A stretch of DNA of 64,000 bases, taken from NCBI GenBank assembly GCA_000165345.1, contig CM000434.1, positions 832,001-896,000 on the forward strand, written 5' to 3'. The notes beneath the pieces are model-generated. The model ran no database searches, had not been told where the DNA came from, and was given only the letters and a program-made list of their open reading frames with translations. Positions 3,500 through 55,386 of the stretch are shown here, in pieces. Positions within the stretch are counted from its first letter, which is position 1; each line of letters begins with the position of its first letter. The position numbers were made by a program, and so were the translations under genes.

Positions 3500-3601
3500 T
3501 TGGCGCCATAACTCCCCTTAGAAATTGAGAATATTTTTATTATAGGGGGAAAAATGGCAAAGTAAAAAAAAAAAAAAAAGTTATATACCGGTAATGACGT
3601 G
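3500..3601. promoter_or_regulatory. Candidate divergent promoter elements (E2F-type TTGGCGCCA; ATACCGGTAA-TGACGTG)
   Basis: TTGGCGCCA lies at 3500-3508, and ATACCGGTAA at 3585-3594 directly abuts TGACGTG at 3595-3601. They sit between the divergent myotubularin (-) and derlin (+) start codons. Confidence 0.45.
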
Positions 3602-3675
3602 TTAATTTTTTTTGAGAAATTATATTAAAAAAATAAAATTGCTTAAAAAGACCAGAATTATTATAAAAGGAAAAT

Positions 3676-4503: not shown

Positions 4504-4851
4504 GCTCAGAAAAGTTGAACTAGAAGATATATAAGTTAGTATTTTCTTACCATAGTATGGCTTTCCTTTATTATTTTAACTGCTAGTTTATAAATCTAAT
4601 ATAATTTTACATCCTAGTTATATATGTATATGATTATTTCAATCGATAAGAATTTGAAGATACAGGAGGAGAGAAACAATGAAGAAGAAAAAGGTGATCG
4701 TTTTCTAGATAATTATTTAGTTGCTATTAGCCGAGTAGAATTTTGCATTGATAGTATTGATATATAAATAATTCAATAGATCTATATACCCAATTAAGGG
4801 AACACAAGACTCCATCGAATAAATTAACTACTCTCTTCATCAATCTTTCTT

Positions 4852-6120
4852 TTATACTGTCCTGGTAGCTTTTTCATATAAAACATCAACGACATTTGAA
4901 AGATTGTCGAATGTAGAGATAAGTTCAGGAATCTTTAAATTAGAATTCTGATTCTCATCATAGATAGTAAGAACTTCAGTTCTTTGATCAATATTTCCCT
5001 GAATCAACTTGTTTAAAATCATTTCAATAACCTTGGAATAAACTCTTTCGGAAGAAAGATTGAGGAATAAAGCAAGTTGAGAGATTTCAATGTGTGAATA
5101 AGATTCCAAAATTCTTAAAATATTCTGTTCCATCAAACTTTCATACAAGTTATTAATATGTCTGTGAATGACCATATCACTGCTTAACTCGGTTTCATAA
5201 TTCTTTAAAACATCCTCGAACATACTAAGAGATCTATTTTCGCAGCAAGATGCAACCATTCTCAAGGCTTCAATCTCTCTCATCTGGAACTTAACTTTAT
5301 TTTTACCAGAAAGTAGAGAAGCTAAATTATTGGTTTGTTGGGACATGATCTTTGATAACAACATATACTTTAATGATTGCAAGGCTCTTTCATCATTTGC
5401 AATATTAAATGCCTCGAAAGCTTCATAAAAGTACGAGAATGATGTCTTAAAATCTTCTTCATCAGCAAGTATAATGCCAGATTGTAGATCTATATCAGCC
5501 TGTAAGAGAGGAGGACAGTGAATGGAGTTTGCATTAGTTCTAGCTGCTGTCAAAGCTGCCTTAGACTTGGGTAAGTTACGAATTCTATACTCAAGTTTAC
5601 TTTCTATCAAATAAGCCTCCACTAATAGAATCTTATCGTCAACCTTTTTAACTTCTTTAATCAACTTTTCAATATAGTCTAAACCTTTAACAAATTGACT
5701 AGAGTTCAAATAAACCATTGCTAAACGAGCAGTAATTCTATGTCTCAAGAATGTACGCTTCTCTTCTAAGCACCATTCAATACACTCCAAACAAAGTTGT
5801 TCTTGTAGTTTTTCGGTATCTGGAATTTTTGACATCATATCCATTAGATTTCGAATAATCTTTGCAACTCTAGCTTTTGGTAGTCCACCAATTATTGGTC
5901 TAATAGTTTTAATAAGCTCTTTCAATTCATTTGCCATGCCTTGTTTCATATATATTTCTCCTAATGTATAGATTGCCTGCTCTTGAATTTTGGTTCCATC
6001 TTCTATTTCATCCAAGTTGTCTTTTTTAATCAATTCGATTAATATTGGAATTGATAATTTGAAGTCTGTCTCCATCAGAGACTTTGCCTTCTCAAAATCA
6101 TCCTTAATACTTATTTCCAT
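4852..6120 (-). CDS. RPN6: 26S proteasome lid subunit Rpn6 / PSMD11 (PCI domain)
   Basis: 422-aa ORF. The block LLVEAYLIESKLEYRIRNLPKSKAALTAARTNANSIHCPPLLQADIDLQSGIILADEEDFKTSFSYFYEAFEAF matches the highly conserved Rpn6 core as I recall it. The C-terminal part is PCI-like. Confidence 0.9.
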   Translation of the reverse strand: MEISIKDDFEKAKSLMETDFKLSIPILIELIKKDNLDEIEDGTKIQEQAIYTLGEIYMKQGMANELKELIKTIRPIIGGLPKARVAKIIRNLMDMMSKIPDTEKLQEQLCLECIEWCLEEKRTFLRHRITARLAMVYLNSSQFVKGLDYIEKLIKEVKKVDDKILLVEAYLIESKLEYRIRNLPKSKAALTAARTNANSIHCPPLLQADIDLQSGIILADEEDFKTSFSYFYEAFEAFNIANDERALQSLKYMLLSKIMSQQTNNLASLLSGKNKVKFQMREIEALRMVASCCENRSLSMFEDVLKNYETELSSDMVIHRHINNLYESLMEQNILRILESYSHIEISQLALFLNLSSERVYSKVIEMILNKLIQGNIDQRTEVLTIYDENQNSNLKIPELISTFDNLSNVVDVLYEKATRTV

Positions 6121-11716: not shown

Positions 11717-12989
11717 TTACTTTTTTAAGAGGCATACACAAGATATCATAAAGATCAGTAATGCAATGGTGCATGTAATGGCTAGAATCATCTTGCTATC
11801 AAAGATGTTTCTTTTTTGTTCTGCTGCAATCATTCCATTCAAATCAATATATCCTTTATTATGGAGTCTGGAATAGTCCTCCTCACTATCTAAAGGAGAA
11901 AAGCTTTCAGAGTAGTCGTGTTTTAGTTCATTCCTCCTTTTTTCTTTGCTATTAACTCTTCTAATATTCTTTTTAGTAGTATTTGACTTACTGTCACTCC
12001 TCTCTTCACTGGAATCATCATCCAAGTTCTTATTTCCATCTTCATAATCATTTGTTTCAACACTTTGCAGCACTTCCAACTCTGGAATATGAGGAACTGG
12101 AGGAGGCGGTGGTAATTCCTATAGACTAAGGTTATTCATTTCCATAAGATTACTTATTTTCTATTAACTTACCGATAAATGAGCTTGAGAAGTTATTCTA
12201 TATATTTCTTTAAGTCTAGTTGTACATGTTGTACATCTAATTTCCTCTGAGAGGTCTACTGGTCTTTCATCACTATAATTCTTTTCATCTAGAAGAAATC
12301 TTATTTGGTTGCTTAGATGTTTCCATAGCAAATCTATTAGAATCACTGACTCTGCTCTAACTGCTAAGTGGACAACATTTTCTTTAGAAGAATCTCTTGC
12401 ATGAAGCAAATGTTGGATTCCATAGATTTTTCTGTTAATCAGTTCTTTGGTTGCATAAAAAAACCCATTTCTGATTATTGCCGTCAATAATGTGTCAATT
12501 TTCTGAGTTAAAGTTTAAGTTAAGTTAATTAATTTGAGATATTTTCTCGCTAATAACTTACTTTTACTGTACATGTATAAAATAATGTACCTATAAACTG
12601 AGTTGGGATTTCCTGCATTATATTATCCATACTTTCAATTGCAGATCTTGCCCTATCCTCTAAATCAGTCTCATGCTTGGGGTTCTCAAGACAATCTATC
12701 AGCTCAAAGTATCCAACTACTGAAGGTGGAGTTTCTTGCATTGTCTGGCTAAGATAGTTGGCTATATCATAACCTAAGAAAAATAATGAGTAATAAGGAT
12801 TTATAATGTTTTTACATTGTAAAACTTACAAGAACTTCTCAAACTTGTATTAATTTCTTTAAAAACCTCTCCCTTTTTATCTTCAGGAAAACTCTGAATT
12901 AACCCTAGAAATAAAGTATTAAATAGAATCAAACAAAATAGATAATACTTATAATGGATATAAGGAAAGATGAAGATTTGTCTCCTCAT
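11717..12989 (-). CDS. Signal-peptide / ankyrin-like / C-terminal TM protein, 4 exons (367 aa); paralogue of the 13474-15486 gene
   Basis: Exons are 12989-12830, 12773-12562, 12502-12173 and 12118-11717 (160+212+330+402=1104 nt, in frame). All three introns (56, 59 and 54 nt) start GTAAGT and end AG. The N-terminus MRRQIFIFPYIHYKYYLFCLILFNTLFLGLIQS is signal-like. The block DSSKENVVHLAVRAESVILIDLLWKHL...LLDEKNYSDERPVDL...RLKEIYRIT aligns with the neighbouring gene. The C-terminal TM segment is ILAITCTIALLIFMISCVCLL. Confidence 0.7.
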
Positions 12990-13473: not shown

Positions 13474-15486
13474 TTAAACTTTAGTTGCAAACCAAATGAG
13501 TAAAAGAACCACAGTGAAGACAATACAGAAGATGATAATTGACCAGAAAAGAACTTTTTCAAGGAAGCTTTTTGGTTTTGTACTTTGCTCATCCTCGCCT
13601 TTATCAGACTCCTGAGCTTTTTTATCATCAACTTCACTTTGTTCTTCATGAGAAGCTTTCTTTTCAATGTTGTTTTCACTATTACTTTCATTAGCCTCAT
13701 CTAAAATTTCCCCTTGTATGTCTTGAAGCTCAATGGCATGATGGTGATGATTATGACGGTGGTGATCATCATCATGTTCAAATTTAATAACTTCGTCCTC
13801 GAGAATACTTTCAGAAAGTTCAACAGGATTATGAGGCTGGATTTTCTGGTGTTTATGTGCAGATAAGAGTAACTCCTTTCTATCATTATATTCCTTTCTT
13901 TTAGCACGAAGATTCTTTTGAACAGATTCTTTGTTTAATTCCTCTAAGGCATAATTATCCATAATTCGACTAACTTCCTTTCCTTTTTCAATAGCTGTAT
14001 TAACTACTTCTTCATAATTTGAACTCATTTTTAAAACAGGCTTACAGAACAGTGCAGCAGTTTCTGTCATAATTTTCTGTTTTCTCTTCTCCTCCATTAC
14101 AGCTTCAGGATCAAGCTTCTTAACAAAGTTAGACATAGTCCTGTATGTAGTTTTAAGTCTTCTAATAATACTAGGGCGTCTTTCATCAACAGCAACATCG
14201 AGTGGAGTCTGGTTGGAGTTATTTTTCTCCTCTAAAGCAATCTTAATCTCAACAGGATCTTTAATTAATCTTAAAACAAAGTCAACAACTTGTAAACTGT
14301 TAGACATTGCTGCAAGATGCAAAGGATTATTACCAGCAGAATCATAATAATGACCATATTTAACACATCCCCACATTTTATGAGCAATTGGATGAAGTAG
14401 AGATGAAAGATATCCATATTCTATCAATTTCTGGTAAACTGATCTCCCATGATCTTTATCAGCTTCGCAAACATACAAAGCTAAGGCCTCTTGAGGATTG
14501 ATCCCTTCTGCAGCAGGATCCTTAAGAACGTCAAAGGCTGCAGTAATAGTCTTTTCAGCTTGAATATTTGTCATAGACTTTAGAGCCGTAATTTCACCGA
14601 ATATTATTTTAAAAGCTGCCTGAGATGAGGTACCAATTAAATCTTTATTCCACTCAAACTTTTCTATAACATCAGAACATGTTGGAGTTGGCAAATACTT
14701 TGATGATTTGGGTTCTTCGCCATCATCTATGCTTCTTTTTCTTCCAAATTGTGTCTGCAATGGCCTGGTTTGTGGCTCACTGGTAAAAGATCTTGTTGGC
14801 TGTACTACGCCTAACAATACATCAAGAGTTGCTGGTGCAACATGGCCAATAGCATTTCCAGAAATTCCATCCTTAATAGAATCTGAAGCCTTTTGTACAT
14901 TTGGATCTTCAGTAGGTAATACATCTTTGACTATATCATCATCATCATCCTTTGAACTTTCAACTTGATTTTGGCCTGATAAGGCTGGAACTATTGACTC
15001 CTCTGGAGTGACCTCGGATCTTTTTGAGCTTTCTTTATCACTTAAAACAAAGTCTCCTGATAAAGATGCTCCTCCGCCCTCCTCTTCATTTTGAATCTGG
15101 ACATCTTGTTTTTGTTCTGTTTGGCTATTCAATTGCTGGCTTTCACTCTGATTTATTGGAATCTCCTCACTATTTTTTTCCGATAATTTTGAGCCTTCCT
15201 TCATCTCAGATTCTGAAGCTTCTCCCTCAGAACTTAATTCGCCAGAACCTTCATCATCATCATCAGCGTAGGTGCTTTGAACAGAACCTTCATTTTTTGT
15301 AAAACCTTTATCATCAGGCTTACTTAAATCTGAAGCTGATGCTGAATCCTCAGCTTTGCTACCTTCAGTTTCTTCATATGAAGACTCAGAACTTGATTGG
15401 TTTACAACATCAGTTGCCAACATACCATTCTGTGCCAGCTTTAAGAGCACGATACATAAAAATAATATGATGTATTGTATTCTCAT
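13474..15486 (-). CDS. Signal-peptide / acidic low-complexity / ankyrin-like / His-rich / C-terminal TM protein (670 aa)
   Basis: Single ORF. The N-terminus MRIQYIILFLCIVLLKLAQNG is signal-like. The first third is rich in Asp, Glu and Ser. An ANK-like repeat reads DSAGNNPLHLAAMSNSLQVVDFVLRLI...EEKNNSNQTPLDVAV. There is an HDDDHHRHNHHHH tract. The terminal TM segment is VLFWSIIIFCIVFTVVLLLIWF. Confidence 0.75.
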   Translation of the reverse strand: MRIQYIILFLCIVLLKLAQNGMLATDVVNQSSSESSYEETEGSKAEDSASASDLSKPDDKGFTKNEGSVQSTYADDDDEGSGELSSEGEASESEMKEGSKLSEKNSEEIPINQSESQQLNSQTEQKQDVQIQNEEEGGGASLSGDFVLSDKESSKRSEVTPEESIVPALSGQNQVESSKDDDDDIVKDVLPTEDPNVQKASDSIKDGISGNAIGHVAPATLDVLLGVVQPTRSFTSEPQTRPLQTQFGRKRSIDDGEEPKSSKYLPTPTCSDVIEKFEWNKDLIGTSSQAAFKIIFGEITALKSMTNIQAEKTITAAFDVLKDPAAEGINPQEALALYVCEADKDHGRSVYQKLIEYGYLSSLLHPIAHKMWGCVKYGHYYDSAGNNPLHLAAMSNSLQVVDFVLRLIKDPVEIKIALEEKNNSNQTPLDVAVDERRPSIIRRLKTTYRTMSNFVKKLDPEAVMEEKRKQKIMTETAALFCKPVLKMSSNYEEVVNTAIEKGKEVSRIMDNYALEELNKESVQKNLRAKRKEYNDRKELLLSAHKHQKIQPHNPVELSESILEDEVIKFEHDDDHHRHNHHHHAIELQDIQGEILDEANESNSENNIEKKASHEEQSEVDDKKAQESDKGEDEQSTKPKSFLEKVLFWSIIIFCIVFTVVLLLIWFATKV

Positions 15487-16391: not shown

Positions 16392-16644
16392 ACAAAATAA
16401 TGGATTTACATGTATTAGCATACGTAAGAAATAATATTAACGAAAAAATGGGATATTTCGTCGGTGATTAGAGTGGAATACGTATATAAGATATGGACGT
16501 AAGGTAGGAGAAATATTATGTTGAAGATATTTTAAGTTTTAATGTTATAGAATTATTAATCAGTGATATTTGGTGTGATTTTGTTTTTGAGATTTCAATT
16601 AAGGAAAAAAGTAAATAATCAAAAGATTGATAAGAGATAAAGAT

Positions 16645-18372
16645 ATGAAGATTTTTACGGAAAAACTGGCTGTATTTATTGCCGTCTTGGTAATATTAAT
16701 TTCGAATATCTCATGCAATAAAGAAATTGAAATCCCTGAAGATGTTACAAAATTGAATGATGACAACTTTGAAGAATTCATTGATGGAAATAATCTTGTA
16801 CTAGTATTATTTTATGATTCTTCCACTACTTCAAAAAATATAATCCATGGTCTTGGATATGTTTACTCAAACGTAGTAATGTCAAAAGGAACAGGAAAAA
16901 TTGCTGTTTTAAATTGTGAGGAATCTTCAATTCAAAAGAAATTTGAAATTCACCATCCTCCAAAGCTGCTATTCTTTTTTGGAAGTATAAACAAATTTGA
17001 GGCATATCCAAGCCATCTAACTGGTTTGGAAAGAGAATCAATGATTTCGATTATCCTTGCAAAAGAAAATGCTCTCTTCATTGAACATGATGCCAGAGAT
17101 AGTGAATCATTGGAAAAGGCTATGATAGAGTTTGACTTGGAAACAAAAGTTCGCTCCTCCAATCTCCCTGTTATTGTTTATTATGGTAAACCAGGTACTA
17201 AGAGAACTGATGTCGTAAAAAACACACTCGAAAAGTTAAGACTAACTGGAGTTTCCGTTAAAGCATTCATTATTTATGTTAAATACAAGGCCGATATTGG
17301 ATTACATATTTATAGATTGCCTGATTCAGATAAGCATGACTCTATGAATATTCAGCCAAAAGAACTTTATATTGCAAAGAAAAAGATCTTGGGATTATTA
17401 GAGTGGAACAAAGATATTTTATCTGTCTTTATTGAAGCTTGCATAAGGCCATATGTCTCTTTTAAAGGTAATGAAATTATGTATGTACACGAAAGTTCTA
17501 ACTCTTTAATAGCTTTCCTTAAGGGAAGCAACACTCTAGATCGGTATGGATCTAGCAATATTCAGTACTTAGATCATGATTCAATGGAATCTTTGAGAGC
17601 TTTTGCAAAGGCTAACTTTTTCCCAGAAGATCCAGATAAGGATTTAATGATTGGGCTTGTATTACCAGGATTAGAACAGGAGGTAGAAAACTTTACTGGT
17701 TTTCGAAGGGATGCTCATGTGAATGATGGAACCTTCCTCTTGAAACTTCGACAATCCAAATTTGAGCTTGGGAACTCCGGGAAGTCTGATAAATTCCTGC
17801 TTACTGAAGGGGAAATTAAAAAACATGGATTTGAATATTTACTTTCTCAGGCTAAGAATAGAAAATTACCCATTTTTTATAAAAGTAAGAGAATAATGAA
17901 ACAGCAAAAGGTCTCTGCTAGTGTTGAACAATATTTCACAACCCCATATCATTTTCTTGAGCTAAATCCTTCTTCCATCAGAGAGCTAATCCAAGACCCA
18001 AATAATGCACTGATAGTCCTTTACTATTCTGAAATGTGCTCAGGGTGCATGGATCTCCTTCCAATTTGGAACTCGATCTCTTCAAAAATTGCTTCAAAAT
18101 TTGGAAAAGATTCCAAATTCCGTGTTTTTGTCTCCGCTTTCGATGTAGAGTTTAATGACAATCCAATTGATATGCAAATTGAGAAAATTCCTTTAGTATA
18201 CTATTTCCCATTTGGAGAAGATAAAGTTTCCAAGATGTTCTTATATGATGAGGAAATAACCTCTAAAACTGTTACTACATTTATAACTGATAGAGTTCTA
18301 GAGGTTTCTGAAGATAATGATCAAGCTGAGCAAAATATTAGTCCGGATTCTCAAATCAGGGATGAGCTTTAA
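16645..18372 (+). CDS. ER-resident thioredoxin-fold protein (PDI-like), C-terminal RDEL
   Basis: The track start at 16627 is a TTG, and the first ATG is at 16645 (MKIFTEKLAVFIAVLVILISNISC, signal-like). The N-terminal Trx-like segment VTKLNDDNFEEFIDGNNLVLVLFYD has no CXXC. The C-terminal Trx segment ALIVLYYSEMCSGCMDLLPIWN carries CSGC. The protein ends QIRDEL, a KDEL-type ER retrieval signal. Confidence 0.75.
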   Translation: MKIFTEKLAVFIAVLVILISNISCNKEIEIPEDVTKLNDDNFEEFIDGNNLVLVLFYDSSTTSKNIIHGLGYVYSNVVMSKGTGKIAVLNCEESSIQKKFEIHHPPKLLFFFGSINKFEAYPSHLTGLERESMISIILAKENALFIEHDARDSESLEKAMIEFDLETKVRSSNLPVIVYYGKPGTKRTDVVKNTLEKLRLTGVSVKAFIIYVKYKADIGLHIYRLPDSDKHDSMNIQPKELYIAKKKILGLLEWNKDILSVFIEACIRPYVSFKGNEIMYVHESSNSLIAFLKGSNTLDRYGSSNIQYLDHDSMESLRAFAKANFFPEDPDKDLMIGLVLPGLEQEVENFTGFRRDAHVNDGTFLLKLRQSKFELGNSGKSDKFLLTEGEIKKHGFEYLLSQAKNRKLPIFYKSKRIMKQQKVSASVEQYFTTPYHFLELNPSSIRELIQDPNNALIVLYYSEMCSGCMDLLPIWNSISSKIASKFGKDSKFRVFVSAFDVEFNDNPIDMQIEKIPLVYYFPFGEDKVSKMFLYDEEITSKTVTTFITDRVLEVSEDNDQAEQNISPDSQIRDEL

Positions 18373-18600: not shown

Positions 18601-21600
18601 TTAAGTTGTAAACTTGAAAAAGGTTAATATTGCAAGTGGTGTAAAAATATAAAGACAAAACCCTGACAATTTTTCTGTTATATCAAATCCACAAATCTTA
18701 AGCAAAGGTGGTGTTGAGTTAATTACAAGTAGAACCTTCTCTATCACAATATAAATCCCTGCTCCTGGTGGAGTTCTATGTAAAATATTTTGCAACCAAG
18801 AATGAGTTCTTACTGATGTTCTGTTTATTTGATAAAGTAGCCTTATTACATATGAAGAAAAAATAAACATAACTATTCCCATTGTTAGAAAAATTGTCTC
18901 ACAATTTGAATAAGTATTGATCATATTATTTTCTGAAGATGATGGAATTGTTCCTTGATAAGATAAATATGAAGTTGCATATTGAGGAATTGTTAACATA
19001 AATGAAAGAGCTGAAGTTTTAATGTTTGATATACTTGCTAGATTTGAATATGTTAATGTTGAATGTGAAATTACTGGATTATTATCATTGTTATTCATAC
19101 CAGAACGTATTGATCTCATCAAATTTATATTATTTATAAAATTGTTGGTACCTTCTCCTGGAATATTAGTATAATAATGATCATTTAAATCTATCATTGA
19201 TGATATATCATTATATTTATTCATATTATAATTATCCTCATTATTTGAGTTTAAAATATAATCAATATTTGAAATTGAATCCATAAATTGATTTTTATTT
19301 GTTGAAAAAGATCCTGTCTTAAAAAAGTTATTCATAAAATGATCCCCTATTGATCTTGAATTTAACTCATTTAACAAATTTGTACTAATTCCTCCACCTA
19401 TAATATTTGGAGATGTAGTTAATATTCTTGAAATATCTTTATCAAAAGAACCTCTTACAATATTTGTTGAACCAGAAGCTGATAATCCATTCAAATTTTG
19501 ATTTGAACTTGGATTCTTACTCAACATTGTAGAAGATGAAAGATCTGAAACTCGATTATTATATATTCTATTCTTTTTGTTATATATTGCAACAAGCATA
19601 ATTTTCCCAATACAAAAGAAAATTAAAGTATTTATAGATACAGAAGCATTTAAGAAAGATGTCCAAAGCTTTGTATTCTTATAAAGGATATGTTGTATTG
19701 CACTTCTCCAATAACTAACAATTTGAATAAATTCTTGAACATTTGAATATTTAAATTGGGTTGGAATATGTTGAACTAATACAATACAAAGTCTTTTTCT
19801 TTGTTTCACAAAGAATAATAAAATAATCAAACCTTTCAAAATCTCAAAAATTAAGTTGGAAATCCAATATGTAAATATACATTCAATAATATAAACTGTT
19901 ATTGGAGATTTATTATAAAGGAAATATAAAGTTGAATCCCTTATTAAATATGAATTACTTTTAAATAATGTTATTGATATATTTGATGACATTGCCACAA
20001 TACAACTTATTATCTTGCAAGTAATAACAACATTAAAGTATTCATATGGAGTATTATAACTCACTTCATCCACTAATCGATATAATGGTTTATGAATCTG
20101 ATTATTAGTTACAACATTTCCAATATTTGTTCTAATATTATCACAACTTAAATTATCTTCTGCACTTGAAATAATGTTCCTAATTTTTCTTAATCTAATA
20201 GATCTTTTAACTTGGTTATTACTTTTTATGAAATTATTAAAGTTATCATTAATACTTGGAATTTTTTTCTGCCGTTTAGAATTAATATAAATACTTGTTT
20301 TACTTGATATGTTAGTATCACTTTGATATATTTGTTGTGTATTTTTTATTCTATTACAATAATTAGATAAAACTGACTTAAAACGTTTGTTTGCTGTGTT
20401 ACTTCGGGTTATTCTAATAGCTGGACCACTCAAAGTTGAACAAAATTTATCATTTACTAACCCAAAAGATGAAGATTTTGAAGAATTAATGTCAAAAGCA
20501 ATATTAATATCATTTGATTCAATTTTTGAATTATAATTTTGAATCCAAGGTGTTCTCAAATATTTATCTCCTGAGCTAGTATCATTAGAAATGGTTGAAG
20601 TAATTGATAATAAATCAGGCAAACAAATATATTCTCCTCCTGTTGAAGATTTTTTTACTTTAACTGAACTTTTCTTCATTACTTTCACTTTATTTACTTT
20701 AGAATGATTTGGATTTAATTTTATCCTATTGATATATTTATCATCATCATTTTTTTTTGTTATAGATTCTAAATCTGAACCAAGTGAATTTGTATCTTCA
20801 TTTGATTCACTCGAACTCAAATTCTCATCATCCGCAAAGTTATTATTTTCAAAATATTTTGAAGATGATGATGAATATGAGGTAAAACGAGAATAAGATC
20901 TCGATCCAAAAGTTGTCACATTTGAAGAAGAAACTCCCAATAAATTAAACCTTGCAGTATTTGGTGAAGAAAAATTAGATGAAGAATCTGGTTGAGAAGT
21001 TACTGAACAACCATTTACTTCATTTGAATAAGAATGACTGGCCTTTGTGTTAATGTAGTAATTACTAGTTGAAAAACTTGATCCTGATTGACTATTATTT
21101 AATTCTGATATAAAACTCCCGCCAAATCTATGATGCACTTGTGCATGTAACTCCGGTATTAAATCCATATGAGACTTATTTCTAGAACTTAATTTTTGAC
21201 TTGATAATTTTTGTGGAATCAACATATTTGGTGAAATTTCAATTTGATTGTCTAAGATTGGAACTTCACTATTAATTTTATTATTAGAATTCTTGTCAAT
21301 ATCACTTTTGTCGCAATCAAAGTCATAGTCATACTCATTATTATTATTATGACTGAAATAGTTGTTTTTAATTAAAGTACTTGAATTCATTGCACAGTTT
21401 AAAAGGTTTGAATATATATTTCTGATATTTTTTCTGTTTTCTACAGATTTCTTATAATAGTAATAATTATATAAGTAATATTCTTTAGAAAATCCACAAA
21501 AGTATTTGTTACAATAGTTGGAAACAAATTCATGTGTGTAATATATTCTAACACTTGAACAGAGTGTGGCTGTGATAATGACTCCAATTAAGAACCATAT

Positions 21601-24600
21601 ATAGTCATATTCACTAATTAGGAAAAGTATCGTGAATAAGTAAATTAATGAAATAATTTGTATGAAGAAGAATAAGTATTTGATAATAGACTGAAGATTT
21701 GTATTTTTTTGAGAGTTTTTTTGCTTAAAATAATTCATTGGAGCATTCAACAAATTACTCTTTGTAGTTTTAATAGTATTCATAGACTTTTTATCCTTAA
21801 TATTTTCTTTTAAAGAGTTATCCTTATAAATATACCAAGGTGATGTGAAAATTAAAGACAATGCCAACAATACTGAATCAATGACTTTTCCTGATGCAGA
21901 TACTGGGAAAATTTCTGCAAAATCTCTTAATCTAAATACAGAATATGGCAATGTATTTAAAAAAGCTTTTCTCGTATATTTGAGAATATTTTTTGTTAAT
22001 AACTGAATTGATGATTTTGACTTAAAATTTGAATTTTGGCTTTCATTAGTTACACCCGATATTCCTCTTTTTTTTTCTTTTTTATTTTGTCTGATTAACC
22101 CACTTTTTGTTTTTTTATTTGAATTTATTTTCTTTTTAATCTTTTCCTTACTCCAATCGTTTATCATGTTTTTGATATAAAAGACTTTGAGATATGATAT
22201 AATTGCCCAAAGTAATATGTAAATTATAGATGTCAATAGAATTGCAGAAGAAACTCGAATAGCTGATGGAATTATATGATTATGAGGACTTGTATTTAAT
22301 AAAGTAATGAATTTTGCTTTTTTAGCCAATAGTTCTTCAAACGTAGTATATGAACTTGATTTATCACAGATTGGATGTTTATTCATCATTCCATAAAGTT
22401 TACTTCTACTTATTAAGGGACCTAAATCAGTAACATTAGCTTTAGCTGGTATTTCTGGTATGTAACCAAGATGAATTTTTTGATAATCACTATTTAGACT
22501 TGGAATATAACATTCAGTTTTTTCACCAATACATTGAGAATCTATCAGCAATGTACTGGATGGATCAAATTCATGTTCATGATCTTGACTAAAAATCATG
22601 GGTACCCATAAGACCTCTTTTATTTGCATAATATTACAAATGTTTGGTAGCTCTATTAAGCAGTTACCCAAATATGTATTTATTCCCATTTTTTTATCCA
22701 TCTTTTTATATAATGCATCAATTCCAGTTTCATGTGTAGGTGTTGTTTCCATATTATCTTGACCAAAATAGTCAAAGTCGTCCAATATTCCTTGTATCTT
22801 CTCATTTAAATTGTTGCTTTGAGTATTTTCAATAGCATCATTAATATTTAGATTCTCTAATCTGTTTTTAAGAGTATGAAGTCCTTGAATCTTTGAAAAA
22901 TCCACGTTCTTTCCTAAGAAGAGTTCAGCTTCATTATTTCTTGGATAATTACAGGTGGAGTTCTGTAAAATTTTGATAATATGTTCAAAACTACTGGAAC
23001 GTACAAATTTGGTCATTTCTGGAGACAATAATTGTTTTACTAGATTGATAGCTTCTCCTAAAGAATCAGTTTTTCGATATTCTGTTTTAGTCTTTGATAA
23101 ATTAACTAATTCATCATTTTTGTCAGTATAATTTTGGAAAAGTTTAGTCTTTTGAGAAAAAATGGTGTCAAAGTTACTAAAAATAGATTCATATTCTCCG
23201 CTAGTATCGTGTTGAGAAATATGATCATCTTCTTCAAAATAACCTCTTCTCATTTCACTTCTCACAAAATTCATTTGTTCTTCAAGTTCATTCTGCTCGT
23301 CCAGCTCATTCTGTTTTTCCACTTCCTTATTGTTTTCAGTAAAATCAAATTGATACTGCAAAAAGAAATCGCGACTAAATTCTGGATTAGAGTAAATACT
23401 ACCTTCAACGGAACTACTGCTCTTTACTTTCTCATTAAAAGTAGTATTTTCTAGCTTTACTGAAACATTTACATCTCTTCCATTTGAATCAGAAGCTGTC
23501 AAACTTTCATTAATATACTGGAAGATTTTATTGTGTTCAATACTATTAATTTTAGCCAAATTATCTAGCTCAGTCTCATCTGAATCAGTCTCTGAATTAG
23601 AATCAATTTCACGAATTTCTCCTTCAATACCATTCGAAAGAATAATAATTCTAACCAAAAGTGTAACGGGAATAGCCATCAAATCATCTAAATTTGGAAA
23701 TTCTGGAGGTAATGAACCCAATAATCTGGAAGCAACTTGGATACTCACTTCTGATGAGTAATCAAGACTTGAAAGTACTTCTGATAGTGTCTGGACTCTT
23801 CCTAAAAGAATATTTCGAATAATATCATCCTTTCCTAAAATTGTTGCAGTAATAAGAGCATGCTGTAATGCATGAATACACCAAAAGCTTTGTAACATTG
23901 CCTCCCTTAATATTGACTGTAATACCACTTTTGACGTATAATTTTTATTTAATAAAAGTAGTAATGATAAGATCGAAATTGAATTATCATACTCTGAAGT
24001 ACCTATAATAGGTATCGATCGTGGTGTAGGAATTGAGTACCTTTTTAAAGGCTTACAAAAACATCTCACGACAAATGAACTGACGTGGAAGTCTATGGCT
24101 GGTGATGAGAGATATTCAACAATTTTATGTTCACCTGTAATATCGTTTCCTGAGCTAACCGCAAGTTCGTACCAAAGAGTTGTATTGGTTTTTGGATTTT
24201 GAAACATAAGCATTTCCTCGAGAATTTGGAACTTAGGCAACTTATTGTTATTGTTTCCAGAAAATTTGAACTCATTAATTTGATCAAACTCTTCAAACAT
24301 TTTAAAAGATTTTTTACTGCTAATAGTTGGTTTATATAAAAGTGAATTTTCTTTATTAAGTTCTCTGCTCTCTTTTAACATCAATTCCTCCTGATAATTG
24401 ATTTTGTAAATAAGGTGGCCAATAGGAAGGTTCCCATATATATCAGGTTCATGAAGTTCGCAAAGTTCAAAATCCAATACCCCAGTATTAGTCTGAAACT
24501 TGTAGAAACTAACCAAAATCCTAATCAGATCTTCATCTCCAAGATGAGCCATCCACCAAAGCAAGTTCCGGCCTTCATTATCCCTAACAATGCATATATC

Positions 24601-25593
24601 CTTGTTATATGCCTTGATTTCTGGGAGTAATAGAGAAAAGATGACTTTTTTATCAAATCCTCTTTTAATTGCAGTAATAATACGAAGAATTTTATCCTTT
24701 GCATTGGCCAACTTTCTGTTAATTTCGGAAAGAGTTGAATTTAAAGGTAACTTTTCATTACTGGAAATATACTCGTTATCAATATTATTCCTCACAATAT
24801 ACTTGGAAAAGGAGGAATGTTCAATTAATTTATTTAATAACTTTTTGTTTCCTGACTCAATAATAAACGAAATCGCATCTTTTCCTTCAAGGGTTAAATC
24901 AGTCATAGATGCTCCGTAGTCCAAAAGCAACTCCAAGAATTCCTCGGTATTTGTTGACATTCCGTCTTTTAATAAGAAATAAAATGGGGTTAGCCCATTT
25001 CTGTCTGGAATATTTGGGTTTGATCCACATTTTAACAGAAAATGAGTCATCCTCAAATTCTTTGAGATTACACTGTAAAATAATGGAGACAAATCCCTAT
25101 TATCTGAGTAATCAATATTGGCTCCGTTAAGTAATAATAATGCCACTAATGGTAAGTTGCTTCTTTGAACAGCATTAATCAATGGACTGATTCCATTCGC
25201 ACCAACTATGTTTACATCTGCTCCATGTTCTATCAAATATAACGAGATAGTATAGGAAATATATCCATTTTGTCTAGTTGAAATGAGTAAGGCAGTTTCT
25301 CCTGTTGAATTAGAAATTGAATTAATATTATTAACGCATAACCTATCAAGCATAGCAGTGATTGCCTCAAGATCCTGTAGCCTAATACTTTCATGGAATT
25401 CATCCACTAAATCAAGACATTCTTCTGTGTAAGCAATATCTTTTTGGCATTCACAGTTATTTTTCTGGATTACATTTACCAATGAATCTGAAATACTGTT
25501 TAATGGGCAACCAATAGGAAATATTTGTTTGGTTCCTATGCAAAACAATATCTTAAACGTTAAAAGAAAAATTGAACATAGATAAATCTTCAT
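18601..25593 (-). CDS. Giant (2330 aa) signal-peptide, ankyrin-repeat, multi-pass membrane protein
   Basis: Single uninterrupted ORF. The N-terminus MKIYLCSIFLLTFKILFCIG is signal-like. It has at least 4 canonical ANK repeats (TGETALLISTRQNG...LIEHGADVN, NGISPLINAVQRSNLPLVALLLLNGANID, DLSPLFYSVISKNLRMTHFLLKCGSNPN, NGLTPFYFLLKDG). There are at least 8 strongly hydrophobic 20-aa segments in the C-terminal 1250 aa, separated by Asn/Ser-rich low-complexity tracts. Confidence 0.8.
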   Translation of the reverse strand: MKIYLCSIFLLTFKILFCIGTKQIFPIGCPLNSISDSLVNVIQKNNCECQKDIAYTEECLDLVDEFHESIRLQDLEAITAMLDRLCVNNINSISNSTGETALLISTRQNGYISYTISLYLIEHGADVNIVGANGISPLINAVQRSNLPLVALLLLNGANIDYSDNRDLSPLFYSVISKNLRMTHFLLKCGSNPNIPDRNGLTPFYFLLKDGMSTNTEEFLELLLDYGASMTDLTLEGKDAISFIIESGNKKLLNKLIEHSSFSKYIVRNNIDNEYISSNEKLPLNSTLSEINRKLANAKDKILRIITAIKRGFDKKVIFSLLLPEIKAYNKDICIVRDNEGRNLLWWMAHLGDEDLIRILVSFYKFQTNTGVLDFELCELHEPDIYGNLPIGHLIYKINYQEELMLKESRELNKENSLLYKPTISSKKSFKMFEEFDQINEFKFSGNNNNKLPKFQILEEMLMFQNPKTNTTLWYELAVSSGNDITGEHKIVEYLSSPAIDFHVSSFVVRCFCKPLKRYSIPTPRSIPIIGTSEYDNSISILSLLLLLNKNYTSKVVLQSILREAMLQSFWCIHALQHALITATILGKDDIIRNILLGRVQTLSEVLSSLDYSSEVSIQVASRLLGSLPPEFPNLDDLMAIPVTLLVRIIILSNGIEGEIREIDSNSETDSDETELDNLAKINSIEHNKIFQYINESLTASDSNGRDVNVSVKLENTTFNEKVKSSSSVEGSIYSNPEFSRDFFLQYQFDFTENNKEVEKQNELDEQNELEEQMNFVRSEMRRGYFEEDDHISQHDTSGEYESIFSNFDTIFSQKTKLFQNYTDKNDELVNLSKTKTEYRKTDSLGEAINLVKQLLSPEMTKFVRSSSFEHIIKILQNSTCNYPRNNEAELFLGKNVDFSKIQGLHTLKNRLENLNINDAIENTQSNNLNEKIQGILDDFDYFGQDNMETTPTHETGIDALYKKMDKKMGINTYLGNCLIELPNICNIMQIKEVLWVPMIFSQDHEHEFDPSSTLLIDSQCIGEKTECYIPSLNSDYQKIHLGYIPEIPAKANVTDLGPLISRSKLYGMMNKHPICDKSSSYTTFEELLAKKAKFITLLNTSPHNHIIPSAIRVSSAILLTSIIYILLWAIISYLKVFYIKNMINDWSKEKIKKKINSNKKTKSGLIRQNKKEKKRGISGVTNESQNSNFKSKSSIQLLTKNILKYTRKAFLNTLPYSVFRLRDFAEIFPVSASGKVIDSVLLALSLIFTSPWYIYKDNSLKENIKDKKSMNTIKTTKSNLLNAPMNYFKQKNSQKNTNLQSIIKYLFFFIQIISLIYLFTILFLISEYDYIWFLIGVIITATLCSSVRIYYTHEFVSNYCNKYFCGFSKEYYLYNYYYYKKSVENRKNIRNIYSNLLNCAMNSSTLIKNNYFSHNNNNEYDYDFDCDKSDIDKNSNNKINSEVPILDNQIEISPNMLIPQKLSSQKLSSRNKSHMDLIPELHAQVHHRFGGSFISELNNSQSGSSFSTSNYYINTKASHSYSNEVNGCSVTSQPDSSSNFSSPNTARFNLLGVSSSNVTTFGSRSYSRFTSYSSSSSKYFENNNFADDENLSSSESNEDTNSLGSDLESITKKNDDDKYINRIKLNPNHSKVNKVKVMKKSSVKVKKSSTGGEYICLPDLLSITSTISNDTSSGDKYLRTPWIQNYNSKIESNDINIAFDINSSKSSSFGLVNDKFCSTLSGPAIRITRSNTANKRFKSVLSNYCNRIKNTQQIYQSDTNISSKTSIYINSKRQKKIPSINDNFNNFIKSNNQVKRSIRLRKIRNIISSAEDNLSCDNIRTNIGNVVTNNQIHKPLYRLVDEVSYNTPYEYFNVVITCKIISCIVAMSSNISITLFKSNSYLIRDSTLYFLYNKSPITVYIIECIFTYWISNLIFEILKGLIILLFFVKQRKRLCIVLVQHIPTQFKYSNVQEFIQIVSYWRSAIQHILYKNTKLWTSFLNASVSINTLIFFCIGKIMLVAIYNKKNRIYNNRVSDLSSSTMLSKNPSSNQNLNGLSASGSTNIVRGSFDKDISRILTTSPNIIGGGISTNLLNELNSRSIGDHFMNNFFKTGSFSTNKNQFMDSISNIDYILNSNNEDNYNMNKYNDISSMIDLNDHYYTNIPGEGTNNFINNINLMRSIRSGMNNNDNNPVISHSTLTYSNLASISNIKTSALSFMLTIPQYATSYLSYQGTIPSSSENNMINTYSNCETIFLTMGIVMFIFSSYVIRLLYQINRTSVRTHSWLQNILHRTPPGAGIYIVIEKVLLVINSTPPLLKICGFDITEKLSGFCLYIFTPLAILTFFKFTT

Positions 25594-54324: not shown

Positions 54325-55386
<1,062 letters not shown>

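What the first reader, a model, noticed from the sequence alone, without database searches (positions are those of the whole stretch)
18601..25593. 2330-aa protein combining a signal peptide, N-terminal ANK repeats and at least 8 TM segments
An intronless 7-kb ORF encodes at least four canonical ANK repeats immediately after a signal-like N-terminus. About 800 aa of low-complexity sequence follow, and then a C-terminal half with many 20-aa hydrophobic helices separated by Asn/Ser tracts.

ANK repeats plus a multi-pass membrane domain recall channel or transporter architectures such as TRP-like channels. I see no recognisable pore or transporter motif, and the apparent signal peptide would invert the expected topology. 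The gene sits directly next to the two smaller signal-peptide/ANK genes. That makes three such genes within 14 kb, interrupted only by the PDI-like gene.
Basis: partly seen in the sequence, partly recalled or inferred. Interest (0 to 1): 0.5.

Follow-up and report, generated by a model that had tools for sequence, protein, structure and literature searches.

The report
Cryptosporidium-only ankyrin multi-pass membrane protein
The 7-kb ORF is the already annotated but unstudied Cryptosporidium parvum gene cgd6_3650, a real membrane protein found only in this genus, with ankyrin repeats on the non-cytosolic side and no detectable kinship to any channel or transporter.

Summary
Window 18601..25593 (-) is one uninterrupted 2330-codon ORF with an N-terminal signal peptide, five canonical ANK repeats and 8-10 hydrophobic helices in the C-terminal half.

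One detail is wrong. The roughly 800 aa after the ANK repeats are not low complexity. They contain two conserved modules and conserved cysteines.

The protein is identical to C. parvum Iowa II EAK89983.1 / CPATCC_002925. GenBank already names it [quoted passage not shown]. Published RT-PCR primers identify it as cgd6_3650.

Full-length orthologues exist across the genus Cryptosporidium, including the gastric species. Nothing outside the genus matches the non-ANK parts, even in an exhaustive profile search of 1.84 billion proteins for the C-terminal TM module. Pfam and PDB profiles give no hit to any channel or transporter. AlphaFold models of the non-ANK parts were unusable.

The TRP-like reading is not supported. 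The ANK domain is predicted to be luminal, and the helices lie in three clusters split by disordered loops of about 400 and 215 aa.

The adjacent 670-aa ANK gene is cgd6_3630, the validated rhoptry protein ROP6. That shows Cryptosporidium does route ANK proteins through the secretory pathway. Function remains unknown. My best guess is a membrane-anchored luminal or surface binding scaffold of intracellular stages.

The parts
18601..25593 (-). Whole single-exon gene cgd6_3650 (2330 aa plus stop), identical to EAK89983.1 / CPATCC_002925
   Evidence: ORF listing and translation. Exact-sequence look-up. Published cgd6_3650 RT-PCR primers map to 20819-20949.
25531..25593 (-). Signal peptide, aa 1-21 (n-region MK, h-region about 17 aa, C-I-G before the predicted cut)
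   Evidence: Sequence. A hydrophobic N-terminus is present in orthologue models that include the N-terminus, followed by invariant FPxxCPLN. Cleavage itself is inferred.
25411..25530 (-). Cys-containing N-terminal cap, aa 22-61 (C29, C47, C49, C59)
   Evidence: C29 and C59 are invariant; C47 and C49 are conserved in 6 of 7 species.
24796..25410 (-). ANK solenoid, aa 62-266: capping helices plus five canonical repeats
   Evidence: Pfam Ank_2 5.6e-18. AlphaFold pLDDT 74-92 with helix pairs every 33-37 aa. PDB profile and Foldseek hits are ankyrins and DARPins.
24394..24795 (-). aa 267-400: a linker, then two further ANK-like helix pairs (aa ~298-369)
   Evidence: AlphaFold pLDDT 64-77. Weak Pfam Ank_2 hit E=0.093 at aa ~308-362. 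37-54% identity to distant orthologues.
23614..24243 (-). Conserved non-ANK ectodomain module, aa 451-660. It includes the invariant GSxPPEFPN motif and a buried hydrophobic helix at aa 636-655.
   Evidence: 59% identity to C. serpentis and 71% to C. xiaoi. No Pfam or PDB match. No similarity to the ANK block by hhalign. aa 636-655 loses hydrophobicity in C. xiaoi and the gastric species, so it is probably not a TM helix.
23044..23613 (-). Variable acidic stretch, aa 661-850
   Evidence: 7-27% identity and length 75-231 aa in distant orthologues.
22279..23043 (-). Conserved juxtamembrane ectodomain module, aa 851-1105 (invariant C881, C978, C986, C1076)
   Evidence: Invariant columns and regional identity. 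No family match.
22192..22260 (-). TM1, aa 1112-1134, followed by a Lys-rich (25% K) loop at aa 1141-1200
   Evidence: Hessa-scale sum -2.3 to +0.1 in all orthologues. K+R is 0 before and 3 after the helix. Loop composition.
21394..21993 (-). TM cluster 1, aa 1201-1400: marginal helix 1237-1255, hairpin 1306-1327 / 1331-1351, and a Tyr-rich conserved tail (CNKYFCGFSKEYYLYNYYYY)
   Evidence: Hydropathy. Invariant D1239, Q1312, R1349.
20164..21393 (-). Long disordered Ser/Asn-rich loop, aa 1401-1810
   Evidence: S 20%, N 14%. 10-22% identity and length 211-504 aa in distant orthologues.
19564..20163 (-). TM cluster 2, aa 1811-2010: helices ~1855-1877, 1897-1912, 1913-1931 and 1983-2005, with the invariant cytosol-like segment VxQRKRLC...QHIP.QF.YSN.QEFIQ
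   Evidence: 57-74% identity to distant orthologues. Invariant K1860, E1917, K1920, N1988, K1997 lie inside helices.
18919..19563 (-). Second disordered Asn/Ser-rich loop, aa 2011-2225
   Evidence: N 18%, S 17%. Only 54 aa long in the gastric species.
18604..18918 (-). TM cluster 3, aa 2226-2330: helix 2232-2254, the block HRTPPGAGIYIVIEKV.LVI.STPP (all specified positions invariant; possible re-entrant segment) and terminal helix 2308-2328
   Evidence: 63-67% identity to distant orthologues, the best-conserved part of the protein. Hessa sums.
13474..15486 (-). Neighbour cgd6_3630 = CpROP6, 670 aa: SP + ANK + C-terminal TM (context, not part of the gene)
   Evidence: Primer mapping. ROP6 identity and rhoptry-bulb location from PMC13432881 and PMC12688253. 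Pfam ANK hits.
11717..12989 (-). Small intron-split ROP6 paralogue: SP-like exon, ANK exon, C-terminal TM exon (context)
   Evidence: ORF pieces lie in different frames. BLASTP to ROP6 aa 354-452 gives E=4e-12. A 334-aa intron-containing gene sits at the syntenic place in C. serpentis.
16627..18372 (+). Neighbour cgd6_3640: thioredoxin/PDI-like protein with SP and C-terminal RDEL, convergent with cgd6_3650 (context)
   Evidence: Pfam Thioredoxin 2.8e-9. Primer mapping. RDEL terminus.

Best explanation
**Shown.** The ORF is the single-exon Cryptosporidium parvum gene cgd6_3650. It is single-copy, confined to the genus and conserved across it. It is transcribed in intracellular stages: almost silent at 2 h and highest at 24-72 h in vitro.

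**Inferred topology.** A cleavable signal peptide sends the first ~1,090 residues into the lumen of the secretory pathway, and so eventually to the parasite surface or the inside of an organelle. That domain consists of a Cys-containing cap, 5-7 ANK repeats and two conserved non-ANK helical modules. TM1 (aa 1112-1134) then crosses the membrane, and the Lys-rich loop after it is cytosolic. In all, 8-10 helices in three conserved clusters form the membrane core. Long disordered Ser/Asn-rich loops that evolve fast lie between the clusters.

**Inferred mechanism, low confidence.** The protein is not a TRP-like or otherwise recognisable channel or transporter. It most likely works as a membrane-anchored binding platform. 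The luminal or extracellular ANK solenoid and the conserved ectodomain modules would hold a protein partner. The membrane core carries invariant buried charged residues and a nearly invariant C-terminal segment, so it probably has its own constrained role, either assembly with other membrane proteins or an unrecognised transport activity.

Placing ANK repeats in the secretory lumen has precedents in this parasite: ROP6, encoded next door, and RON9.
For: **Identity**
- Exact match to EAK89983.1 / CPATCC_002925.
- cgd6_3650 primers map inside the ORF.

**Reality of the ORF**
- P(no stop) is about 1e-91.
- Colinear orthologues in C. hominis, C. tyzzeri, C. meleagridis, C. ubiquitum, C. canis, C. 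felis (its model is frame-shifted after about aa 470), C. xiaoi, C. serpentis, C. muris and a closely related gastric sequence (P0139).
- Gene order is conserved in C. serpentis.

**Genus restriction**
- Profile HMM of aa 1801-2330 against 1.84e9 proteins gives 3 hits, all Cryptosporidium.
- Word-indexed searches with aa 250-1400 (single sequence) and aa 400-1400 (profile) each listed one protein, a Cryptosporidium orthologue not seen before.

**Luminal N-terminus**
- SP-like N-termini are present in orthologue models that include the N-terminus.
- The N-terminal Lys and short h-region fit a signal peptide or an N-in anchor. Either one translocates the ANK domain.
- 15 of 17 ectodomain Cys are conserved.
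- K+R is 0 before and 3 after TM1, followed by a 25%-Lys loop.
- The best positive-inside topology has the N-terminus luminal with 8 TM helices.

**Membrane core under constraint**
- 57-74% identity to the distant orthologues (C. xiaoi, C. serpentis) in TM clusters 2 and 3, against 10-22% in the loops.
- Invariant D1239, Q1312, K1860, E1917, K1920, N1988, K1997, E2285 and K2286 lie inside hydrophobic segments.

**Expression**
- Mauzy et al. 2012, Table S1 (PMC3305300).

**Precedent**
- cgd6_3630 = ROP6 in the rhoptry bulb.
- RON9 = SP + ANK + TM (PMC3299665).
Against: - No localisation, proteomic or genetic data for cgd6_3650 were found. No paper in the searchable library mentions it in its main text.
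- Signal-peptide cleavage and topology come from simple rules, not a trained predictor or an experiment. Positive-inside scoring is only weakly discriminating in this Lys-rich proteome.
- AlphaFold models of the TM core (mean pLDDT 35.8, pTM 0.21) and of aa ~370-1110 (pLDDT <50) are unusable, so no fold evidence exists for most of the protein.
- Invariant charges in the helices would fit a transporter at least as well as a passive anchor.
Confidence: 0.5

Rival explanations
1. It is a new kind of channel or transporter. The conserved polytopic core conducts or carries a solute, and the ANK ectodomain acts as a regulatory or tethering module. This would be analogous to TRP channels but not homologous to them.
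For: - 8-10 conserved helices with invariant acidic and basic residues inside them (E1917/K1920, E2285/K2286, D1239, K1860, K1997).
- A Pro-flanked block, PPGAGIYIVIEKV.LVI.STPP, invariant at all specified positions, that could be a re-entrant loop.
- Cryptosporidium depends heavily on uptake from the host (general knowledge).
Against: - No match to any Pfam transporter or channel family at E<=10.
- No PDB sequence match at E<=10.
- No relatives outside the genus.
- No internal repeat or pseudo-symmetry between helix clusters.
- Helices are dispersed over 1,200 aa with disordered loops of about 400 and 215 aa.
- The ANK domain lies on the non-cytosolic side.
- No GYG motif or TRP box.
Confidence: 0.15
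2. It is a membrane protein of a secretory organelle (rhoptry, dense granule or small granule). After discharge it would end up in the host-parasite interface or feeder organelle, with its ANK ectodomain facing host-derived material, like its neighbour ROP6 and like RON9.
For: - SP + ANK is the signature of ROP6 (adjacent gene) and RON9.
- The gene arrangement is conserved across the genus.
- Polytopic rhoptry membrane proteins such as RON11 exist in Cryptosporidium (PMC13419397).
Against: - cgd6_3650 is not among the 16 hyperLOPIT rhoptry proteins listed in PMC13432881.
- Its transcript profile is low at 12 h and rises to 36-72 h. ROP6 is zero at 2-6 h, highest at 12 h and lower at 24 h; its later time points were not retrieved.
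- No sequence similarity to ROP6 beyond the generic ANK fold (E=0.4).
- It is absent from the DG8 pull-down supplementary tables that are held.
- Conserved gene order is general in this genus and so carries little weight.
Confidence: 0.2
3. The N-terminal hydrophobic segment is not a functional signal sequence. The ANK domain would then be cytosolic, as in TRP channels, KIDINS220 or ANK-DHHC enzymes, and the protein would be an ordinary cytosol-facing scaffold anchored by its C-terminal helices.
For: - ANK repeats are overwhelmingly cytosolic or nuclear in eukaryotes (general knowledge).
- The h-region contains a Lys.
- Topology here rests on simple rules only.
Against: - The hydrophobic N-terminus is kept in orthologue models that include the N-terminus even though its sequence diverges, which is typical of signal peptides.
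- The mature N-terminus starts with the invariant motif FPxxCPLN, and ectodomain cysteines are highly conserved.
- Charge distribution around TM1 fits N-out/C-in.
- No DHHC motif, and no Pfam family other than ANK (including zf-DHHC and KAP_NTPase) matches at E<=1.
- ROP6 and RON9 show that luminal ANK domains occur in this lineage.
Confidence: 0.1
4. The long ORF is an annotation artefact that fuses two or more genes, for example an ANK protein and a separate membrane protein. Alternatively, the loops are non-coding.
For: - Public gene models differ in length: 2255 aa in CAD98407.1, 1684 aa in C. muris CMU_016890.
- The loops are poorly conserved.
Against: - One open frame of 2330 codons in DNA with 28% G+C, where stops occur every ~12 codons by chance.
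- The frame stays open through the loops in every full-length orthologue model (C. felis is frame-shifted; C. muris lacks the N-terminus) even though loop length and sequence vary.
- RT-PCR detects transcript from the large loop region, nt 20819-20949.
Confidence: 0.03

Closest known systems
CpROP6 (cgd6_3630) and RON9 (TgRON9 / cgd4_2420): secretory ANK proteins of coccidia and Cryptosporidium
   Same: - A signal peptide followed by ANK repeats, with membrane anchoring C-terminal to them. The ANK domain is therefore topologically luminal.
- ROP6 is encoded about 3 kb away on the same strand.
   Different: - ROP6 and RON9 have one C-terminal TM helix, and RON9 also has a Sushi domain. cgd6_3650 has 8-10 helices and a 1,090-aa ectodomain.
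- No specific sequence similarity to ROP6 (E=0.4).
- It is not in the published hyperLOPIT rhoptry list, and its expression timing differs.
TRP channels with N-terminal ANK repeats (TRPA, TRPV, TRPN/NOMPC)
   Same: ANK repeats lie N-terminal to a multi-pass membrane domain. NOMPC and ankyrins appear among the ANK-only hits.
   Different: - TRP ANK repeats are cytosolic, whereas here they follow a signal peptide.
- TRP channels have a compact 6-TM unit with a pore loop and a TRP box. Here there are three helix clusters spread over 1,200 aa.
- No Ion_trans or TRP Pfam hit and no PDB hit.
KIDINS220/ARMS (ANK repeats + KAP NTPase with 4 TM helices) and ANK-DHHC palmitoyltransferases
   Same: N-terminal ANK repeats combined with several TM helices. 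KIDINS220 scores as an ANK hit.
   Different: - No Pfam family other than ANK (including KAP_NTPase and zf-DHHC) matches at E<=1, and there is no DHHC motif.
- Those proteins have cytosolic ANK repeats and no signal peptide.
Apicomplexan polytopic secretory-apparatus proteins with a large ectodomain (CRMPs, RON11). This comparison is from general knowledge and was not tested here.
   Same: A signal peptide or large non-cytosolic domain, followed by 7-10 helices and disordered loops. They are parasite-specific.
   Different: - CRMPs carry EGF/Kringle-type modules and RON11 carries EF-hands; neither has ANK repeats.
- No sequence similarity was detected by the exhaustive search.
- Membership was not tested directly.

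Membership tests
Ankyrin-repeat proteins (Pfam clan Ank: PF12796, PF00023, PF13637) | Tandem ~33-aa helix-turn-helix repeats that score above the Pfam gathering thresholds | tested here: met
   Ank_2 65.7 bits (cut-off 27.3), Ank 46.4 bits (cut-off 21.1), Ank_4 43.9 bits (cut-off 22.7). AlphaFold shows five regular helix pairs with pLDDT 74-92. Foldseek hits are ankyrins and DARPins.
TRP / voltage-gated-like cation channels | A 6-TM ion-transport domain (Pfam Ion_trans PF00520 or PKD_channel PF08016) with a pore loop between S5 and S6 | tested here: not met
   No such Pfam hit at E<=1 on the whole protein or E<=10 on sub-regions and on 8 orthologue constructs. The TM profile has no PDB hit at E<=10. 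No GYG or TRP-box motif.
TRP / voltage-gated-like cation channels | ANK repeats on the cytosolic side of the membrane | tested here: not met
   The conserved signal peptide and the charge distribution around TM1 place the ANK repeats on the luminal side. This is a rule-based prediction, not an experiment.
ROP6/RON9-type secreted ANK proteins | Signal peptide plus luminal ANK repeats | tested here: met
ROP6/RON9-type secreted ANK proteins | Sequence homology to ROP6 or RON9 beyond the generic ANK fold, and a single C-terminal TM helix | tested here: not met
   BLASTP against ROP6 gives best E=0.4. The protein has 8-10 helices rather than one. RON9 itself was not compared.
ROP6/RON9-type secreted ANK proteins | Localisation to the rhoptry | not testable with these tools
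   Only indirect evidence: cgd6_3650 is absent from the list of 16 hyperLOPIT rhoptry proteins quoted in PMC13432881. The hyperLOPIT paper itself is not held.
ANK-DHHC palmitoyltransferases | DHHC cysteine-rich domain (Pfam zf-DHHC) between TM helices | tested here: not met
   No Pfam family other than ANK (including zf-DHHC) matches at E<=1, and there is no D[HY][HY]C motif.
KIDINS220 / KAP NTPases | KAP P-loop NTPase domain (PF07693) with inserted TM helices | tested here: not met
   No Pfam family other than ANK (including PF07693) matches.
Cryptosporidium cgd6_3650 orthologue group (genus-specific orphan family) | Colinear SP - ANK - conserved ectodomain modules - three TM clusters, with the block HRTPPGAGIYIVIEKV.LVI.STPP invariant at its specified positions | tested here: met
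   The window protein is the C. parvum member. Alignments A1, A2, A3 and A6. Exhaustive search.

The most novel reading that the evidence does not exclude
cgd6_3650 would be the founding member of an unrecognised class of membrane proteins invented within Cryptosporidium. Its polytopic core, with buried conserved charges, would have a transport or membrane-remodelling activity. That activity would be coupled to an extracellular or luminal ANK platform that engages host or parasitophorous-vacuole components at the parasite-host interface during intracellular growth.
Probability: 0.12. Interest if true: 0.65.

Novelty: already known. Interest (0 to 1): 0.3.

Why it matters
Cryptosporidium is a major cause of childhood diarrhoea. 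It builds a unique extracytoplasmic niche, and most of the membrane proteins of that niche are unknown. A genus-wide, genus-restricted, single-copy polytopic protein with a large non-cytosolic ANK domain is a reasonable candidate for lineage-specific membrane biology. It sits beside a validated rhoptry ANK protein.

As a discovery, however, it adds little. The gene and its architecture have been in GenBank since the 2004 genome annotation. Nothing found here reveals its function.

This analysis adds:
- a firm gene identity;
- a corrected domain map (the middle region is conserved, not low complexity);
- evidence that the non-ANK parts have no detectable relatives anywhere else;
- a clear rejection of homology to TRP channels or any other known transporter.

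Tried and rejected
- **Pfam scans.** The whole protein, five sub-regions and eight orthologue TM constructs returned nothing but ANK.
- **PDB sequence-profile searches.** The TM profile gave zero hits; the ectodomain gave ANK only.
- **AlphaFold2, ectodomain (aa 22-1110).** With a 6-sequence alignment, only the ANK part was confident. Foldseek on that model returned only ankyrins and DARPins.
- **AlphaFold2, loop-deleted TM construct.** With 8 rows the mean pLDDT was 35.8 and pTM 0.21, so I did not take it to a fold search.
- **hhalign tests.** These looked for internal duplication between the three helix clusters and for hidden ANK repeats in the middle domain. All probabilities were below 1%.
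- **Paralogy with ROP6.** Rejected for the large protein and confirmed only for the small split gene.
- **Literature.**
  - No main-text mention of cgd6_3650, its accessions or its product name.
  - The hyperLOPIT paper, the ROP1 paper and the single-cell atlas are not held.
  - cgd6_3650 is absent from the differential-expression tables of Tandel 2019 that are held. Three of those files were truncated when stored, so this is inconclusive.
  - It is also absent from the DG8 pull-down tables.
- **The hydrophobic helix at aa 636-655.** I considered it as an extra TM and rejected it, because it is not hydrophobic in C. xiaoi or the gastric species.
- **The shorter CAD98407.1 model.** My early assumption that it lacked the signal peptide was wrong. 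It has the same N-terminus.

Full report
**1. The observation**

Window 18601..25593 on the minus strand is a single open reading frame of 2330 codons. It starts at the first ATG after an in-frame stop four codons upstream. The DNA is about 28% G+C, so a stop is expected roughly every 12 codons. The chance of 2330 codons without one is about 1e-91, and the other five frames of the interval stay open for at most 123 codons.

The protein begins MKIYLCSIFLLTFKILFCIG|TKQ. That is a short positively charged n-region, a ~17-residue hydrophobic core and small residues at -3 and -1.

Pfam finds only ankyrin families (Ank_2 E=5.6e-18, Ank 3.2e-12, Ank_4 2.5e-11). An AlphaFold2 model of residues 22-1110 is confident only over the ANK part. 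It shows five regular helix pairs 33-37 residues apart (aa ~101-258, pLDDT 74-92), preceded by capping helices, and two further ANK-like pairs at aa ~298-369 (pLDDT 64-77). Foldseek and a PDB profile search return ankyrins and DARPins only.

In the C-terminal half there are 8 non-overlapping 19-residue windows with Kyte-Doolittle hydropathy >=1.6. Shuffles of the same residues give 1.4 +/- 1.1, with a maximum of 6 in 1000.

So the signal-like N-terminus, "at least four ANK repeats" and "at least 8 TM segments" are all confirmed.

**2. What is wrong in the description**

The "about 800 aa of low-complexity sequence" after the ANK repeats is not low complexity. Shannon entropy per 50-residue window is 3.5-4.0 bits, the same as in the ANK domain.

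Two stretches are well conserved:
- aa 451-660: 71% identity to C. xiaoi and 59% to C. serpentis.
- aa 851-1105: 38% and 29%.

In addition, 15 of the 17 cysteines in the ectodomain (aa 22-1110) are conserved in at least 6 of 7 species.

The truly variable, compositionally biased parts are:
- aa 401-450;
- aa 661-850 (acidic);
- aa 1141-1200 (25% Lys);
- aa 1401-1810 (20% Ser, 14% Asn);
- aa 2011-2225 (18% Asn, 17% Ser).

**3. Identity**

The translated protein is found letter for letter in the public collection as C. parvum Iowa II EAK89983.1, also QOY41251.1 / CPATCC_002925. It lies on a 1.33-Mb contig. Its product name reads [quoted passage not shown].

To obtain the CryptoDB identifier I took the RT-PCR primers of Mauzy et al. 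2012 (PMC3305300, Table S2) and mapped them onto the window:

| Gene ID | Window position | Feature |
|---|---|---|
| cgd6_3650 | primers at 20819-20949 | inside this ORF |
| cgd6_3630 | 13474..15486 (-) | the 670-aa ANK gene |
| cgd6_3640 | 16627..18372 (+) | the PDI-like gene |
| cgd6_3660 to cgd6_3690 | downstream | the next genes |

cgd6_3630 is CpROP6, a validated rhoptry-bulb protein (PMC13432881; PMC12688253).

**4. Phylogenetic distribution**

Full-length colinear orthologues were found in these species:

| Species / sequence | Identity to the window protein, or note |
|---|---|
| C. hominis | 97% |
| C. tyzzeri | listed in the same 90%-identity cluster as the query |
| C. meleagridis | 91% |
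| C. ubiquitum | 70% |
| C. canis | 65% |
| Unnamed Logan assembly | 64% |
| C. xiaoi | 43-46% |
| C. felis | model frame-shifted after about aa 470 |
| C. serpentis (gastric) | 42% |
| P0139, a close relative of C. serpentis | gastric clade |
| C. muris (CMU_016890) | model lacks the N-terminus |

The family therefore spans the deepest split in the genus.

Everything else in the first search matched the ANK repeats only. Three further searches addressed the non-ANK parts:
- A profile HMM of aa 1801-2330 from seven species was scored against every one of 1.84 billion representative proteins. It gave three hits, all Cryptosporidium.
- A word-indexed search with aa 250-1400 listed one protein, the C. 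serpentis orthologue.
- A word-indexed profile search with aa 400-1400 listed one protein, the C. muris orthologue.

The gene is single-copy. In C. serpentis the local gene order is the same: PUB-domain gene, several genes, the giant ANK/TM gene, a convergent PDI-like gene, the ROP6 orthologue and a small intron-containing gene.

**5. Anatomy and topology**

Regional identity to the distant orthologues (C. xiaoi, C. serpentis) defines these modules:

| Region | aa | Identity to C. xiaoi / C. serpentis | Note |
|---|---|---|---|
| SP | 1-21 | - | |
| Cys cap | 22-61 | - | |
| ANK | 62-266 | 47-65% | |
| ANK-like | 267-400 | 37-54% | |
| Ectodomain module A | 451-660 | 59-71% | |
| Acidic variable stretch | 661-850 | - | variable |
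| Ectodomain module B | 851-1105 | 29-38% | |
| TM1 | 1112-1134 | - | |
| Lys-rich loop | 1141-1200 | - | |
| TM cluster 1 | 1201-1400 | - | |
| Loop | 1401-1810 | 10-22% | length 211-504 aa |
| TM cluster 2 | 1811-2010 | 57-74% | |
| Loop | 2011-2225 | - | 54-240 aa |
| TM cluster 3 | 2226-2330 | 63-67% | |

I graded the hydrophobic segments with the Hessa 2005 hydrophobicity scale, with values taken from memory:
- Strongly membrane-like in every clade (seven helices): 1117-1135, 1308-1326, 1332-1350, 1911-1929, 1985-2003, 2234-2252 and 2312-2330.
- Moderately so (two helices): 1856-1874 and 1898-1916.
- Marginal: 1237-1255.
- Too polar for a classical TM helix: 2280-2298, which is flanked by PP on both sides and is nearly invariant. 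It may be a re-entrant or interfacial segment.
- Probably a buried helix of a soluble domain: 636-655, which loses its hydrophobicity in C. xiaoi and the gastric species.

With the N-terminus fixed as luminal, the arrangement that best satisfies the positive-inside rule has 8 TM helices. The margin is small in this Lys-rich proteome.

Whether or not the N-terminal segment is cleaved, its N-terminal Lys and short core predict an N-in orientation. That translocates the ANK domain. TM1 has no K/R in the 15 residues before it, three after it, and then a 25%-Lys loop, which fits N-out/C-in.

Several polar or charged residues inside the hydrophobic segments are invariant across the genus: D1239, Q1312, R1349, K1860, E1917, K1920, N1988, K1997, E2232, R2251, E2285 and K2286. 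This argues that the membrane core is more than a passive anchor.

**6. Search for a known fold or family**

- No Pfam family other than ANK matches the whole protein at E<=1 or any sub-region at E<=10. Scanning eight orthologue TM constructs gave only isolated, non-recurrent noise.
- A profile of the TM regions has no PDB sequence hit at E<=10.
- hhalign shows no internal duplication among the three helix clusters and no hidden ANK repeats in the middle domain.
- There is no DHHC motif, no GYG-type filter and no TRP box.
- AlphaFold2 on a loop-deleted TM construct (564 aa, 8 rows) gave mean pLDDT 35.8 and pTM 0.21. A fold search on that model would be meaningless and was not run.

**7. Expression**

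In Mauzy et al. 2012 (Table S1, four time courses, normalised to 18S rRNA) cgd6_3650 behaves as follows:

| Time | Level |
|---|---|
| 2 h | essentially undetected (0 to 6e-7) |
| 6-12 h | about 1-6e-6 in three courses, up to 1.8e-5 in the fourth |
| 24 h | 1-5e-5 |
| 36 h | 2.4e-5 to 1.2e-4 |
| 48 h | 0.5-6e-5 |
| 72 h | 1.8-9.6e-5 |

ROP6 (cgd6_3630) is zero at 2-6 h, highest at 12 h and lower at 24 h in the part of the table I retrieved. I did not retrieve its later time points.

So cgd6_3650 is transcribed as part of this ORF, since the amplicon lies in the large loop. It belongs to intracellular, later-stage expression rather than to the 12-h pattern seen for ROP6. It does not appear in the differential-expression tables of Tandel 2019 that are held, but three of those files were truncated when stored. 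No paper in the searchable library mentions the gene in its main text.

**8. The neighbouring ANK genes**

- cgd6_3630 (ROP6) has a signal peptide, ANK repeats and a C-terminal TM helix.
- The region 11717..12989 (-) holds a small gene split into pieces in different frames. It has a signal-like first exon, an ANK exon and a C-terminal TM exon. Its ANK segment is paralogous to ROP6 residues 354-452 (29% identity, E=4e-12).
- The 2330-aa protein shows no specific similarity to ROP6 (best E=0.4).

This is therefore a ROP6 tandem pair next to an unrelated ANK membrane protein, not a three-member family. RON9 (cgd4_2420; PMC3299665) is a further example of SP + ANK + TM in this lineage. Luminal ANK domains, although unusual in eukaryotes, are an established feature here.

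**9. Interpretation**

*Shown:*
- a real, transcribed, single-exon gene;
- genus-restricted and genus-wide;
- a conserved modular architecture;
- no detectable relationship to any channel or transporter family.

*Inferred:*
- luminal or extracellular orientation of the ANK ectodomain;
- 8-10 TM helices;
- cytosolic disordered loops.

*Proposed, with low confidence:* a membrane-anchored binding platform whose ectodomain holds a protein partner, and whose conserved charged membrane core assembles with other membrane proteins or carries out an unrecognised transport step.

*Rivals:*
- a novel transporter or channel (0.15);
- an organelle or host-interface membrane protein in the manner of ROP6/RON9/RON11 (0.2; not exclusive of the main reading);
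- a cytosolic ANK domain with a non-functional signal sequence (0.1);
- a gene-model artefact (0.03).

**10. Verdict**

The finding is real but already recorded in the public annotation. The TRP-like idea is not supported. The remaining interest is that of a well-conserved, lineage-specific orphan membrane protein beside a rhoptry effector gene. That makes it a sensible candidate for tagging, but it is not a surprise to a specialist. Interest is 0.3.

Noticed in passing
window 13474-15486 (-): The 670-aa SP + ANK + C-terminal-TM gene next door is cgd6_3630 = CpROP6, a validated rhoptry-bulb protein. It lies head-to-head with the PDI-like gene cgd6_3640 across a ~1.1-kb spacer. Both transcripts are near zero at 2-6 h.
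   Followed up: partly
window 11717-12989 (-); L001:20628-21941: A small gene split over at least three reading frames, probably with three short introns, encodes an SP-like exon, an ANK segment paralogous to ROP6 (E=4e-12) and a C-terminal TM helix. It has no ID between cgd6_3620 and cgd6_3630 in the 2012 primer list. A 334-aa intron-containing gene sits at the same syntenic place in C. serpentis.
   Followed up: partly
window 16627-18372 (+): cgd6_3640 is a thioredoxin-fold, PDI-like protein with a signal peptide and a C-terminal RDEL retention signal. It is sandwiched between two secretory ANK genes with conserved cysteines, and this arrangement is kept in C. serpentis.
   Followed up: partly
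window 36898-43716 (+): A second giant ORF (2272 aa, listed from a TTG) has no Pfam hit at E<=1e-5. It is another large uncharacterised protein in the same window.
   Followed up: no
window 54367-55386 (+) and 56235-57791 (+): Glyceraldehyde-3-phosphate dehydrogenase and hexokinase genes lie side by side on the same strand. An aspartyl protease gene follows at 59142-60545 (-).
   Followed up: no
P0007 (C. felis), P0140 (C. muris CMU_016890), P0006 (C. xiaoi), P0123 (CAD98407.1): Several public gene models of the orthologues look faulty. The C. felis model switches into a wrong frame after about aa 470 and again in the C-terminal part. The C. muris model (1684 aa) lacks the signal peptide and N-terminal cap. 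The C. xiaoi model starts 28 codons upstream of the likely start Met. The older C. parvum chromosome-6 model is 75 aa shorter although it has the same N-terminus.
   Followed up: partly
window 18604-18918 (-), aa 2271-2296: The segment HRTPPGAGIYIVIEKV.LVI.STPP is invariant at all specified positions in every orthologue, including the gastric species that are only ~42% identical overall. It is too polar for a classical TM helix, carries an invariant Glu-Lys pair and is bracketed by Pro-Pro on both sides. It has no match in any library.
   Followed up: partly
window 488-6120: The start of the window carries a myotubularin-like phosphatase gene (488-3259, -), a Der1-like gene (3676-4503, +; cgd6_3580 by primer mapping) and a proteasome RPN6 gene (4852-6120, -). 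These are ordinary housekeeping genes.
   Followed up: no
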